Source of the DNA: Candidatus Helarchaeota ASGARD archaeon Hel_GB_B
Lineage (GTDB): Archaea > Asgardarchaeota > Lokiarchaeia > Helarchaeales > HEL-GB-B
Direction of reading: 5' to 3'
Assembly (NCBI GenBank): GCA_005191425.1
Contig: SUPR01000085.1
Span: 1-14,992 of the forward strand
Length of the DNA stretch: 14,992 nt
Numbering within the stretch: the stretch's first letter is position 1; each line of letters begins with the position of its first letter. Below are positions 10,638-14,512 of the stretch, one piece after another. The position numbers and the translations under genes are program-made. The notes under the pieces were generated by a model. It was not told the origin of the DNA. It saw only the letters and a program-made list of their open reading frames with translations, and did not search any database.

Positions 10638-11019
10638 AAATTGTTGAAAACCTTCATATTATATTCAGATTTCTTCAATATTCCTAAATTCTAAGCTAAT
10701 TAAAATATAATAAAATAAATTAAATTCCAACATAAATTATTTATTTTTTTTAATAGACATTATACAAATAAAGAGTTTATTTATTTTTCATTGCTTTTAT
10801 TAATTGTAGTTTAGTTTTCTAACTTAATTTCACACCATTTTTTAATAGCCACCATAATAGATTTTTAGACCTTCTTGCGATTATCCGGTACATTCTCATC
10901 TTCTCTAAAATATCTTCTACCCAATTAGGAAACTGACGGTAGCCAGAAATTTCATTGTATAAATATCAGATTTATAATATAAATATTTAAACATTAATTG
11001 ATTAATAAAATATATATGG

Positions 11020-11349
11020 ATGACCGCTAAAGATATAATCAGAAGATCCACAAATCCTTATTATTCTGAGGATGTTTATAATTATTATTCAGACAATAGA
11101 TTTAATAATAAAATAGGTTATTATAAACTTATGGCATCTGATGAAGGAATATGCGTGATTATTGGATTTTTTATTATACTTGGATAAATCATTACTGTGA
11201 TTACATATATGAGTGCCCAATACAATTATGCAATGACAGGAAACTTGCAAGCAATAGTTAATGCTAATATGACGGTAATTATAATTTGGGTAGTATTTAT
11301 AGTGATAATAGTTATAATAATAATTGCAATAATTAAATCAGGGGTCTAA
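11020..11349 (+). pseudogene. Small two-TM membrane protein gene interrupted by one in-frame TAA (11185-11187)
   Basis: Hand translation: MTAKDIIRRSTNPYYSEDVYNYYSDNRFNNKIGYYKLMASDEGICVIIGFFIILG*IITVITYMSAQYNYAMTGNLQAIVNANMTVIIIWVVFIVIIVIIIIAIIKSGV*. The hydrophobic helix continues in the same frame across the stop. Confidence 0.55.
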
Positions 11350-11950
11350 TTTGGGGTATTAGAGATAATAAAAATTAAATTTGGTAAAAATATTAGAGGA
11401 ATACACCGCATATTTAGAATATGTGTAGAATAAGGACAGCTTAATGGATAATATGAATATATAAGTATTTCAAAATAAGTCCAAGAAAGATATTAAGTTA
11501 GATCTGATTGAAAAAAAAATCCGAATTTCGAGCAGAATAAAATTGAATAATAATATAAGTATAATTTGTCTATACAAGTCCATAATAACCTATAACCTTT
11601 TTTATCAACAAAATTAAAAATATCATAATAAGATTAAAATCAATAAGAAAAAATACCTTGTTTTCTTTACAAAAAAGATTTCAAGCCATATCTAATTGCT
11701 TTATTTTGCTTAATTTTGATTCATCCGAAAGTAAATCAATTAATAACCAAAATTTTATATTGCCTAATTCAAATATTATTCCTAATCGATTCACCTTTAT
11801 TATTGTATTAAAATGAACCCCTGATTTTTCTAATAATTTTTTTAAATATTAATGTGCTGGAAAAGATCCTGGGGGAAATATGAGTATTATATAATAAATG
11901 GTAAATTGTATAAGGTTTGTTTTAATAGAATATTGAAAAGAAATCAGAAG

Positions 11951-14512
11951 TTAAAGTAATTTAGGTTCCTTTTCTTTTTTTCTTTTTTCTTCCTCTTCCA
12001 ATTCTTTAATTTTTTTAAGTTGTTCACTTGTTATCTTATCGAATTTTAAAAAAGAAGGTAAATCTTCGGAAATATTCACATTATTTCTCTTAACTTCCTG
12101 TCTGGACGATTTAAGGAGGCCATCAATTTCTACTTTATCATCGTCCATTTTTTCTTCAAATTTATTTTCAAGTAATTTAAAAGTTGGCACATTCGGGACT
12201 AAAAGTCTTGCATCTCTGGGTTTTTCAGTTTTTTCAATTCCTAATAATTTGTTTTTATTTTTATCAATCTTTGAACTTTCAGGTATATCACCTAATAATA
12301 GAGAACTTTTCTTATCTTGGTGAGTTTCTTTTATTGTTCCTTCATCTTCTTGAGGGTCTAAGCTGGTCAATAATTTAGGTTCTAATTTTTTAATTTCTTT
12401 TGGTTTTGTCCGGGAATCAAGTAAACTAAAATAAGATTTAGCGTCATTAATCTCTCTATCTTTTGATTTATTATCTTGGTTATTACCTTTTGATTTATCA
12501 TAATATAAAAATGAAGGTTGAGATAATAATTCTTCAGGGAGCTGATTGTTTCGTTTTGGTTCTATTTGAACTTCTTGAGGTTCTGGTATTAATTCAGTAA
12601 TTTCTTTTAATCTTTGGAATTTTTTAATTCTCATCTTTTTTTCTTTTTCAGGTGTAAGGACAGGACTATCTTCACTTTCCCATTCAGTTTGTGAAACTTG
12701 ATCAATTTTTTGAAATGTGAATTCTGTTTCTTGAAGAGGGGCTGTTTTTCTTTTTGGTATATTTTCGATGTTTGGCGATTCAGTAGTATTCATTTGTGGA
12801 CTAATTTCAATTTTAACTGTTTTTTTCAATTTTTTAATTTTGTTTTCAGTAAGAACTGGACTTTCCATTTTTTCCCATTCTTTTTTCTTAATTTCGTCAA
12901 TTTTTAAGAAAGTAGGTAAATTTTCATCATTTGTTATTTGTTCTGTTGTTTCTTGAGCTGCTAGTACCTTTTTGCGTAGACCTTCACTTATATTAACCTC
13001 TTTTTCTTGATAACCAGCAAAACGCTCAGTAGAACTTACCTTATCCGCCGAAGTTTTAGGAACAGCAGACAATTCCCGTTTTTTTCCAAATTCAAAATTA
13101 ATAAAATCAAATGATTCTTGGTCGACTTCTCCATTAATTAGATTTCGGGCTAAAAGAGTATATATCATTTTGAGTACCCTTATTTCCGGTATACGAATAA
13201 TTTCTGAAATTTTGGAAATATTAATTCGGCGATATTGGATTAATGTATTAAGTAAAATTTTGTAAATATAATTTGTGGGTAAGGCAATATCCAGCGTATC
13301 CATTGAATTTAATTGAGTTTTTAGTGAACCTAAAGATATTTCGGTCATATTTGTATAATAATCCAGATCGATCTTCAACTCTCCGCCTATTCTTGTATAA
13401 TCTTCTAATTTAATACGAATTGGTGATAAATCTTGCCCTGATGCAAAAATTTTAGACGCACCTATCCAAGCAGAATATCTTGGGTCATTTATTTCACGAT
13501 AACTTGTAATATTAAATTCCAATTCCCCAAGCTGTCCAATCATCTCCCGAATTAAACGTTCTCTTAGTCCATTTAAAGCACTAGTGCCACCCGTAATAAT
13601 AATATTATTGGCAATCTCCTGGCGTAATGTATTCGTACAACTCAAAATAGATTTAATTATTAAATCTTTAATTGAATATTCATTAATACCAAAAAGTCCT
13701 GGATTAAATAATATCTCACAACTATTGTACAGTGGTATATGTAATTCAATTGTTTCTCCCTTGAATAATGGGATAATTTTAGTTAATTTTCCTTCCATAG
13801 CTTCTTTAAAATCTCTTTTCGGAGATAACGAAACGAATGCTAATGATTCCTTTATATCGGTCGCAAGATTATATGTATCAATTATATAGGACGATTCCTT
13901 ATCTTCCATTAATGGAATGATCTCGGCTTCTAATAATCTTGTAATATTATCCCCACCTATAAAAGCTCTTAATAACCCTTCTGAAACAACATTTCCTCTA
14001 AAAATTGGGGTTATATTACAATTGTAATGCCCAATGTCTACAATTAACGCCGAACCATTTTCAACTCCTGAAGATACTAAATCCGAAAAAGGTTGAATGA
14101 CTGGAATTATTGATTTACATTCATATTTAGCAAATAACAATTCTCCAAGAGATTGTAAAACTTTAGAATTAAAAGGTTGAATTAAAATAAAATCTTGACC
14201 TTTTAATTTAAAATTATATGTGTAAGATATATATTCAAGAAAATATTCTAATAAATCCATATCGAAAAAGTCTTCATTATAAATCAATGGAATTTTTTCT
14301 AAAAGTTTTGAATAATATATTGCAGTATCACCACAAAATAAATCCGGTAATTCACTAAGACCAAATAGATTTATAAGATAATTTTTCATCTCTGCATTAA
14401 GTTTTGGATCTGGACGCCCAAAAATAGATGGAATATCTATTCTCGGAAATGATTCTCCAGCATACCCTATTTTTGTGGAATAATTTCCCATTTCTATAAT
14501 TATTGGTCTCAT
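11951..14512 (-). CDS. Actin-related protein (aa 1-377) fused to a PCI-type winged helix (aa ~412-473) and a charged disordered repeat-bearing tail (aa ~478-853)
   Basis: Eukaryote-type actin motifs in order: IIIEMGNYSTKIGYAGE..P...PSIFGRP, GD, VIQ, VDIGH..N.TPI..G, GG..IT, DIKE, EILFNP, NIIITGGTS..NGLRERL, RYSAWIGAS, EDY..IG. These are followed by YRRINISKISEII...LLARNLINGEVDQ and a K/E/S/P-rich tail. Confidence 0.93.
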   Translation of the reverse strand: MRPIIIEMGNYSTKIGYAGESFPRIDIPSIFGRPDPKLNAEMKNYLINLFGLSELPDLFCGDTAIYYSKLLEKIPLIYNEDFFDMDLLEYFLEYISYTYNFKLKGQDFILIQPFNSKVLQSLGELLFAKYECKSIIPVIQPFSDLVSSGVENGSALIVDIGHYNCNITPIFRGNVVSEGLLRAFIGGDNITRLLEAEIIPLMEDKESSYIIDTYNLATDIKESLAFVSLSPKRDFKEAMEGKLTKIIPLFKGETIELHIPLYNSCEILFNPGLFGINEYSIKDLIIKSILSCTNTLRQEIANNIIITGGTSALNGLRERLIREMIGQLGELEFNITSYREINDPRYSAWIGASKIFASGQDLSPIRIKLEDYTRIGGELKIDLDYYTNMTEISLGSLKTQLNSMDTLDIALPTNYIYKILLNTLIQYRRINISKISEIIRIPEIRVLKMIYTLLARNLINGEVDQESFDFINFEFGKKRELSAVPKTSADKVSSTERFAGYQEKEVNISEGLRKKVLAAQETTEQITNDENLPTFLKIDEIKKKEWEKMESPVLTENKIKKLKKTVKIEISPQMNTTESPNIENIPKRKTAPLQETEFTFQKIDQVSQTEWESEDSPVLTPEKEKKMRIKKFQRLKEITELIPEPQEVQIEPKRNNQLPEELLSQPSFLYYDKSKGNNQDNKSKDREINDAKSYFSLLDSRTKPKEIKKLEPKLLTSLDPQEDEGTIKETHQDKKSSLLLGDIPESSKIDKNKNKLLGIEKTEKPRDARLLVPNVPTFKLLENKFEEKMDDDKVEIDGLLKSSRQEVKRNNVNISEDLPSFLKFDKITSEQLKKIKELEEEEKRKKEKEPKLL
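12632..12916 (-). repeat. Two copies of a 30-aa intragenic repeat, period 65 codons (aa 533-562 at 12827-12916; aa 598-627 at 12632-12721)
   Basis: PTFLKIDEIKKKEWEKMESPVLTENKIKKL versus FTFQKIDQVSQTEWESEDSPVLTPEKEKKM: 16/30 identical without gaps, counted by hand. Confidence 0.85.

What the first reader, a model, noticed from the sequence alone, without database searches (positions are those of the whole stretch)
12632..12916. Duplicated TFxKID-x5-EWE-x3-SPVLT-x2-KxKK module in the Arp tail
Seen: two ungapped copies at 16/30 identity, 65 aa apart. Conserved positions are the aromatic/hydrophobic residues, the Trp in acidic context and SPVLT; the intervening residues have diverged, suggesting selection on a binding motif rather than recent slippage. 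Copy 1 runs directly into LKKTV (aa 562-566). Established: eukaryotic nucleation-promoting factors use an acidic Trp motif (e.g. DDEWD, DDWE) to bind Arp2/3 and LKKT-type WH2 motifs to bind G-actin. Inference: a cis-acting VCA-like module. S-P and T-P could also be phosphorylation sites.
Basis: partly seen in the sequence, partly recalled or inferred. Interest (0 to 1): 0.65.

Follow-up and report, generated by a model that had tools for sequence, protein, structure and literature searches.

The report
Repeated helix motif in archaeal Arp tail
The two similar stretches are real copies of an old, previously undescribed ~30-residue peptide motif found only in one order of Asgard archaea; it probably docks a partner protein, but it is not a relative of the eukaryotic VCA/WH2 actin-nucleation modules.

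Summary
Observation confirmed and extended. Residues 534-563 and 599-628 of the 853-aa actin-related protein (window 11951-14512, minus strand) share 16/30 residues, against at most 13 in 200 shuffles. A profile built only from distant relatives picks out exactly these two sites in the whole genome.

They belong to a lineage-specific module: T-F-x-[KR]-[IV]-D-x6-[W/Y/F]-x-K-[D/E]-x2-hydrophobic pair. AlphaFold predicts an amphipathic helix (F0, I3, hydrophobic at 6/7, W11) followed by a short hydrophobic stretch.

The module occurs 1-4 times per protein, in all 7 sampled genomes of one Asgard order (MAGs labelled Helarchaeota). Only one chance-level hit was seen in about 393 other Asgard genomes. 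It sits in two architectures: Arp + winged helix + tail, and zinc ribbon + tail. In one genome the zinc-ribbon form lies 83 bp from the Lokiactin gene.

The VCA/WH2 reading fails:
- LKKTV is present only in this protein and its 98% twin.
- WH2 and thymosin profiles do not match.
- The Trp context is not consistently acidic.
- The motif order is the reverse of VCA.
- Predicted helix confidence does not depend on the Arp domain.

Best reading: multivalent docking helices for a partner, most plausibly an actin-fold protein bound in trans. The partner is inferred, not shown.

The parts
11951..14512 (-). Whole gene: 853-aa actin-related protein with winged helix and a roughly 380-aa tail
   Evidence: ORF. 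Pfam Actin E 6.8e-45 over aa 3-376. Orthologues.
13385..14506 (-). Actin fold (aa 3-376)
   Evidence: PF00022, 153.8 bits. AF2 pLDDT mostly 80-90.
13097..13273 (-). Winged-helix domain (aa 414-472), weakly PCI-like
   Evidence: PF01399 E 0.021. AF2 gives an H-E-H-H-E-E pattern with pLDDT 79-90. Conserved in f1, f2 and f3 Arps.
12950..12991 (-). Conserved helix ISEGLRKKVLAAQE (aa 508-521), upstream of copy 1
   Evidence: Invariant I508, S509, G511, L512 in f1. Predicted helix, pLDDT 75 in the tail-only model.
12833..12925 (-). Module copy 1 (aa 530-560): ..PTFLKIDEIKKKEWEKMESPVLT..
   Evidence: HMM 42.4 bits; 13.5 bits with the clade-out HMM. Present in all f1 orthologues. Predicted helix 535-548, pLDDT 71-74.
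12815..12829 (-). LKKTV (aa 562-566), not conserved
   Evidence: Only in P0001 and P0003. P0004 has LRKPK, P0005 has LKRRP, and it is absent in P0006, P0007 and f2.
12638..12730 (-). Module copy 2 (aa 595-625): ..FTFQKIDQVSQTEWESEDSPVLT..
   Evidence: HMM 44.6 bits; 21.9 bits with the clade-out HMM. Present in P0001, P0003, P0004 and P0005; missing in P0006 and P0007. Predicted helix 600-611, pLDDT about 79.
12593..12652 (-). Basic amphipathic helix after copy 2 (aa 621-640)
   Evidence: AF2 helix 621-640, pLDDT 83-88 in the tail-only model. Conserved in f1, including the single-copy orthologues.
12494..12544 (-). QLPEELLxxPSFLYYDK (aa 657-673): truncated module relic
   Evidence: P666, S667, F668, D672 and K673 are invariant in f1. 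It aligns with the third full module of f2 proteins.
12362..12442 (-). AKSYFxLLDSRTKPKExKK..LLTS (aa 691-717): conserved f1 motif
   Evidence: Invariant S693, Y694, S700 to P704, L714 to S717.
12167..12223 (-). KPRDARLLVPNVPTFKLLE (aa 764-782): PTF motif
   Evidence: P776, T777 and F778 are invariant across f1 and f2.
11954..12061 (-). C-terminal motif LPSFLKFD..EQLKKIKE..EEEE..KKEKEPKLL-COOH (aa 818-853)
   Evidence: Conserved in f1, f2 and the zinc-ribbon proteins of f3. hhalign of Arp tails against zinc-ribbon proteins gives 97.5% probability, E 5.8e-12. Predicted helix 829-848.

Best explanation
The duplicated stretch is two copies of a lineage-specific peptide module of about 30 residues: T-F-x-[KR]-[IV]-D-x6-[W/Y/F]-x-K-[D/E]-x2-hydrophobic pair. 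It is predicted to form a three-to-four-turn amphipathic helix with F0, I/V3, a hydrophobic residue at 6/7 and W11 on one face. A short hydrophobic extended piece follows, and the module is set in a disordered charged tail. It belongs to an old array whose copy number varies (1, 2, or 3-4) and which has left truncated PTF/PSF relics in this protein. The same tail occurs in two architectures within one Asgard order. In two families it is fused behind an Arp plus winged helix, as here. In a third family it is fused behind a zinc ribbon, while the Arp plus winged helix is a separate gene. Inferred mechanism: the helices are multivalent docking sites for a protein partner bound in trans. The most plausible partner is an actin-fold protein (Lokiactin subunits, or the Arp itself), so that the protein would tether, decorate or seed Lokiactin filaments. 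That would resemble tandem actin-binding repeats in logic but not in ancestry. Shown: the motif, its conservation, its distribution and its predicted helix. Inferred: that it binds a partner, and which partner. It is not a VCA or WH2 homologue.
For: The repeat is real and under selection. Position-specific conservation over 28 copies: T-1 in 24/28, F0 in 26/28, K/R+2 in 28/28, I/V+3 in 28/28, D+4 in 24/28, aromatic at +11 in 28/28. Copy number is 1-2 in f1, 3-4 in f2 and 1-3 in the zinc-ribbon proteins; spacing in f2 is a regular 37-48 aa. The module profile hits 7 of 7 genomes of the order and gives one chance-level hit among about 393 other Asgard genomes. Only 11 proteins match the tail profile in 1.84 billion representatives. 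Only Arp and zinc-ribbon architectures appear in 5.8 billion proteins. The zinc-ribbon plus tail proteins have no actin fold, and their tail is homologous to the Arp tail (hhalign 97.5%). The f3 genomes carry separate tail-less Arp plus winged-helix genes, a fusion/fission pattern. In G127 the zinc-ribbon plus tail gene ends 83 bp from the Lokiactin gene. AF2 predicts helices at 535-548 and 600-611 with pLDDT 71-80 inside an otherwise disordered tail.
Against: No binding was tested or modelled, because the tools give neither multimer prediction nor coordinates. The Lokiactin adjacency is seen in one genome only and not in G128. Lokiactin is universal in Asgard archaea while the module is confined to one order, so a clade-specific partner is equally possible. 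The orthology of the f3 Arps is not resolved because of long branches. AF2 confidence for a short helix may reflect helix propensity alone.
Confidence: 0.5

Rival explanations
1. One reading: a cis-acting VCA-like unit. An acidic Trp motif binds the Arp, and LKKT acts as a WH2 that binds G-actin.
For: The Trp is conserved in 23 of 28 copies, and copy 2 is locally acidic with net charge -4. LKKTV follows copy 1 in this protein. The module is fused to an Arp.
Against: LKKTV is not conserved. There is no WH2 or thymosin profile match and no PDB relative. The Trp context is mostly mixed-charge, as in EKWAKD. The order is the reverse of V-C-A. The genome has a single Arp plus Lokiactin only. Module confidence in AF2 does not drop when the Arp and winged helix are removed. 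The module also works outside any Arp fusion, in the zinc-ribbon proteins.
Confidence: 0.05
2. The modules dock a non-actin, clade-specific partner. Candidates are the PCI-like winged helix of the Arp (self-association in trans) or another hub protein. The core [ST]-[FY]-x-x-[ILV]-[DE] also fits generic two-pocket peptide-binding modes.
For: The fusion/fission pattern links the tail to the Arp plus winged-helix protein rather than directly to Lokiactin. The module is confined to one order while Lokiactin is universal. Winged helices of the PCI type are protein-docking domains (weak PF01399 hit).
Against: AF2 module confidence does not fall when the winged helix is absent. No candidate partner was identified. 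Adjacency to Lokiactin in G127 points the other way.
Confidence: 0.3
3. The helices are membrane-binding amphipathic helices that anchor the Arp, or the zinc-ribbon protein, to the cell membrane.
For: There is a clear hydrophobic face (F, I, M/L, W), with Lys at +2 and +13. The helices are predicted as autonomous.
Against: The polar face is rich in Asp and Glu and the net charge is about -2, which is unfavourable on anionic membranes. The invariant K/R+2, D+4 and T-1 look like specific protein contacts rather than lipid contacts.
Confidence: 0.08
4. Functionless low-complexity repeat produced by slippage in a charged tail.
For: The tail is K/E-rich and copy number is labile.
Against: Position-specific conservation holds across families that are about 27% identical overall. 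Synonymous divergence at conserved residues is seen. The clade-out HMM recovers both copies.
Confidence: 0.02

Closest known systems
WH2 / beta-thymosin repeats (Pfam PF02205, PF01290), including tandem-WH2 nucleators such as Spire, Cobl, VopL/VopF
   Same: A short amphipathic helix followed by an extended segment, repeated in tandem within a disordered region of a cytoskeletal protein, at a period of about 38 aa in f2. The tandem-WH2 comparison is from general knowledge, as an analogy of design only.
   Different: No profile match. LKK[TV] is not conserved. A different signature (TFxKID...W...KD). The binding partner is unknown.
VCA/WCA region of WASP-family nucleation-promoting factors
   Same: A conserved Trp near acidic residues after an amphipathic helix, in a protein associated with an Arp.
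   Different: The order of elements is reversed. The Trp context is mixed-charge (mean -1.8) and internal rather than C-terminal. There is no Arp2/Arp3 pair. The module is repeated 1-4 times and is also found without any Arp.
WH2-like LKKT-type linker of Asgard two-domain gelsolins (PMC9433394)
   Same: These are the only WH2-like elements reported so far in Asgard archaea. They are also short linear elements that contact actin.
   Different: They are four-residue motifs (LRRV, LKHV, LVDV) between gelsolin domains. They are unrelated in sequence and context to the module described here.
Asgard actin-related proteins in general (PMC9834061)
   Same: The host protein is an Asgard Arp encoded alongside a single Lokiactin.
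   Different: The papers read mention Arps only as actin homologues; no tail repeats or winged helix are described.

Membership tests
WH2 domain (PF02205) | Match to the WH2 profile | tested here: not met
   No WH2 hit for the whole protein or the tail at E<=1 and E<=10. A six-frame search of the genome at E<=10 hits only an unrelated ORF on another contig at 14 bits.
WH2 domain (PF02205) | Conserved LKK[TV] a few residues after the amphipathic helix | tested here: not met
   LKKTV occurs only in P0001 and P0003, lies 15 residues after the Trp, and is replaced or absent in all other orthologues.
WH2 domain (PF02205) | Binds monomeric actin in the barbed-end cleft | not testable with these tools
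   No multimer modelling and no model coordinates are available.
VCA/WCA of class I nucleation-promoting factors | V-C-A order, with the Trp in a strongly acidic C-terminal stretch | tested here: not met
   The Trp precedes LKKT. The module is internal and repeated. Net charge within +/-5 residues averages -1.8, range -4 to +1.
VCA/WCA of class I nucleation-promoting factors | A target Arp2/3 complex (two Arps plus ARPC subunits) in the genome | tested here: inconclusive
   Only Lokiactin and this one Arp match PF00022. ARPC4 was not found, but the control genomes were silent and the genome is 93.7% complete.
beta-thymosin (PF01290) | Match to the thymosin profile | tested here: not met
   No match at E<=10 in the genome and none in the hmmscan of the tail.
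Actin family (PF00022), host protein | Full-length actin fold | tested here: met
   E 6.8e-45, aa 3-376 against profile positions 6-401 of 410. The fold is confidently predicted.
TFxKID-W module (defined here) | T-F-x-[KR]-[IV]-D, aromatic at +11, K-[DE] at +13/+14, hydrophobic pair at +17/+18 | tested here: met
   Both copies score 42-45 bits with the family HMM, and 13.5 and 21.9 bits with an HMM that excludes their own clade.

The most novel reading that the evidence does not exclude
The Arp + winged helix + tail protein is a single-chain archaeal actin nucleator or filament organiser. The Arp supplies an actin-like template, and the tandem amphipathic helices each recruit a Lokiactin subunit. 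This would be functionally equivalent to Arp2/3 plus VCA, or to tandem-WH2 nucleators, but independently evolved, and in a sister family it is split into two genes, one of them beside Lokiactin.
Probability: 0.2. Interest if true: 0.85.

Novelty: new variant of a known kind. Interest (0 to 1): 0.55.

Why it matters
The Asgard papers read here describe only profilins and gelsolins as Lokiactin regulators, and none mentions a nucleator or filament organiser. This is a conserved multivalent peptide array that is either fused to the genome's only Arp or encoded as a separate gene, once next to Lokiactin. It is a concrete and cheap candidate to test for that missing activity with peptides and recombinant Lokiactin. 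Even if the partner is not actin, the two architectures show that disordered tails with modular linear motifs, a typically eukaryotic way of wiring the cytoskeleton, exist and evolve by repeat gain, repeat loss and domain swapping in an Asgard lineage. The family is narrow (one order, 11 representatives in 1.84 billion proteins), which limits its bearing on eukaryogenesis.

Tried and rejected
- WH2, thymosin and VCA homology: rejected.
- Cis docking on the Arp: tested by comparing AF2 confidence with and without the Arp and winged helix. There was no drop, so there is no support. Contacts could not be inspected because no coordinates or PAE are returned.
- Other module-bearing proteins in the own genome: none found.
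- ESM Atlas look-alikes for the tail: none usable.
- The search for related loci: four attempts led nowhere.
So the contexts of P0004, P0006, P0007, P0016 and P0021, and any expression evidence, could not be examined.
- MIM2-like reading of LLVPNVPTF: dropped, because f2 lacks VPxVP.
- Villin-headpiece-like KKEK C-terminus: a resemblance from memory only, with no VHP hit in the hmmscan at E<=10.
- EF-hand-like FxKID: dropped, because there is no Dx[DN]xDG loop.
- Polarity of the copy-number change within f1: unresolved by the tree.
- Synteny with a nearby M20 peptidase in G127 and in the window: judged non-specific.
Full report
THE OBSERVATION

The finding lies in one ORF, window 11951-14512 on the minus strand, encoding 853 aa. 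Pfam finds a full actin fold at aa 3-376 (E 6.8e-45) and a weak PCI-type winged helix at aa 416-466. The remaining roughly 380 residues are a charged tail.

The two copies start at aa 534 (TFLKID) and aa 599 (TFQKID). They are 65 aa apart, ungapped, and share 16 of 30 residues. LKKTV is at aa 562-566. The coordinates 12632-12916 correspond to aa 533-627.

The similarity is far beyond chance. In 200 shuffles of the tail, the best 30-aa diagonal had 10.0 identities on average and 13 at most. The BLOSUM62 score is 89 against 36.3 +/- 4.7.

At the DNA level the copies are only 60% identical, and 7 of the 16 conserved residues use different codons.

ORTHOLOGUES AND THE TRUE EXTENT OF THE REPEAT

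A search with the tail found five relatives: a 98% twin (P0003) and four proteins of 35-50% tail identity. Most come from MAGs labelled Helarchaeota.

The alignment shows the whole tail is a chain of conserved short motifs:
- Copy 1 is present in all of them.
- Copy 2 is present in P0001, P0003, P0004 and P0005.
- P0006 and P0007 carry a single hybrid copy, with the head of copy 1 joined to the sequence that follows copy 2.
- LKKTV is not conserved. P0004 has LRKPK, P0005 has LKRRP, and the others have nothing there.

A six-frame search of 400 Asgard genomes with the tail found matches only in the window's own order. The second family of that order (f2; loci L011, L012, L014) has Arps that are about 27% identical overall. 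Their tails carry three full modules at a 38-aa period, plus a degenerate fourth.

A profile search of 1.84 billion representative proteins found just 11 hits.

Twenty-eight ungapped copies give the signature:
- T at -1 in 24/28
- F at 0 in 26/28 (Y in the other 2)
- K/R at +2 in 28/28
- I/V at +3 in 28/28
- D at +4 in 24/28
- K/M/L at +7
- W at +11 in 23/28 (Y in 3, F in 2)
- K at +13
- D/E at +14
- a hydrophobic pair at +17/+18

An HMM built without any copy from the window's own clade still recovers exactly the two copies in the six-frame translation of the 3.5-Mb genome. Its E-value is 9e-8, and the next ORF scores E 0.7.

Three further sites in this tail are truncated relatives conserved in orthologues: QPSFLYYD, VPTFKLLE and LPSFLKFD. 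The first aligns with the third full module of the f2 proteins.

A SECOND ARCHITECTURE

The module profile hits all 7 genomes of the order. It gives one chance-level hit (E 0.008) among about 393 other Asgard genomes.

In the third family (f3) the module is not in an Arp. It sits in a 937-aa protein (L033:1279-4089, minus strand) with these parts:
- an N-terminal zinc ribbon
- YxPTY/PTF repeats
- full modules (for example GPTFKQIDATMAEQWKQDETVIT)
- a long array of other roughly 24-aa repeats
- the same C-terminus as the Arp tails (PTFLKID...EEEE...GPQLL)

This is shown. P0016, P0021 and P0022 are of the same type.

A profile-profile comparison of Arp tails with these proteins gives 97.5% probability and E 5.8e-12 over 124 columns.

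The f3 genomes also have separate Arp plus winged-helix genes without the tail, of 483 and 570 aa. Each genome of the order checked for this (G000; G123, G126, G127, G128) has exactly two actin-fold genes: Lokiactin and one Arp with a winged helix. This is a fusion/fission pattern, although the tree cannot confirm orthology of the long-branched f3 Arps.

In G127 the zinc-ribbon plus tail gene converges on the Lokiactin gene with 83 bp between them. In G128 it does not. In the window's own genome the module occurs only in the Arp.

A word-indexed search of 5.8 billion proteins with the module profile found only these two architectures.

STRUCTURE

AlphaFold2 on the full-length protein, with a 13-sequence alignment, folds the actin and winged-helix domains well and leaves the tail disordered. 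The exceptions are islands at the modules (pLDDT 70/66 for aa 541-560 and 62/75/67 for aa 611-640) and at the C-terminal helix.

As a test of cis docking I folded the tail alone (aa 471-853) with the same relatives. The islands stay or rise: 71/74 for aa 531-550 and 79/80/88/83 for aa 601-640. Helices are predicted at 535-548, 600-611 and 621-640.

The confidence therefore does not depend on the Arp or the winged helix. The module is predicted as an autonomous amphipathic helix running from F0 to W11, with F0, I3, a hydrophobic residue at 6/7 and W11 on one face.

I could not inspect contacts, because the tool returns no coordinates. This is absence of support, not disproof.

THE VCA/WH2 READING

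- Pfam WH2 and thymosin profiles do not match the gene, even at E<=10.
- Profile searches of all PDB chain sequences with the module or the tail find nothing relevant.
- The aromatic residue sits in a mixed-charge context (mean net charge -1.8, typically EKWAKD), not an acidic run.
- The Trp precedes the LKKT, the reverse of the V-C-A order.
- The LKKT itself is private to this protein and its twin.
- The genome has one Arp, not an Arp2/Arp3 pair. ARPC4 was not found, but that search had no positive control.
- The papers read report WH2-like elements in Asgard archaea only as four-residue linkers inside gelsolins. They describe Arps only as actin homologues.
- The S-P and T-P sites are conserved only in the closest clade.

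INTERPRETATION

Shown:
- a conserved, position-specific helical module
- labile copy number, with relics of lost copies
- restriction to one order
- two host architectures, with complementary distribution across families

Inferred:
- The modules are multivalent docking helices for a protein partner bound in trans.
- I favour an actin-fold partner (about 0.35-0.4). The reasons are the fusion to the genome's only Arp, the single adjacency to Lokiactin, and the regular 37-48-aa spacing in f2, which would suit consecutive subunits of a polymer.
- A clade-specific non-actin partner, including the PCI-like winged helix, is nearly as likely (about 0.3).
- Membrane binding is less likely, given the acidic polar face.
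- In design the array resembles tandem actin-binding repeats, but by membership it belongs to none of the known families.

LIMITS

- No multimer modelling was available.
- Public-contig scans gave no extra loci.

Noticed in passing
window 10638-11950: A 1.3-kb AT-rich stretch just downstream of the Arp gene has no ORF longer than 55 aa, no tRNA and no Rfam match.
   Followed up: partly
P0015 (693 aa) and L013:846-2942 (G038): Asgard proteins made of several PCI-like winged-helix repeats (PF01399 E 2.7e-14, three stretches), ending in a RING-like zinc finger. Their winged helices resemble the one behind this Arp.
   Followed up: partly
L033:1279-4089 (G127), P0021, P0022: The zinc-ribbon plus tail proteins contain long arrays (more than 15 copies) of two alternating roughly 24-aa repeats, DDARYKAEDYIPEELKYKRKLEL and SEDYKEEIKDYIPEEYKDYKRKLEL. 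These have no Pfam match and are absent from the Arp tails.
   Followed up: no
G000:C149:14843-15148 (L043): A weak profilin-like match (PF00235, 20.7 bits, below the cut-off) inside an 861-aa open frame of the same genome.
   Followed up: no
G000:C142:448-1311 (L044-L046): A three-domain gelsolin-like protein (369-aa frame) in the same genome. It is a candidate Lokiactin regulator to include in binding tests.
   Followed up: no
L038:1465-2913 (G128 Arp plus winged helix): The tail-less f3 Arp has a YPTFEKIQ motif in the linker between the actin fold and the winged helix. This resembles the N-terminal half of the module.
   Followed up: no
L022:646-1635 (G211, another family of the same class): A 329-aa protein begins with ..ENYTFEKIDQE.. 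(half a module, no Trp) and ends in a zinc ribbon. The match is at chance level statistically (E 0.008 per genome).
   Followed up: partly
P0008 and P0022 source names: One family member is labelled Candidatus Deferrimicrobium sp. (a bacterial name) and another Candidatus Hodarchaeota. These are probably mis-binned or mislabelled contigs.
   Followed up: no
P0010 aa ~520-690: One f2 Arp carries about seven tandem copies of a Trp-less variant (YVPSYQRYQTGETP...AQAAKP). This shows rapid local expansion of the PTF-type half-motif.
   Followed up: no
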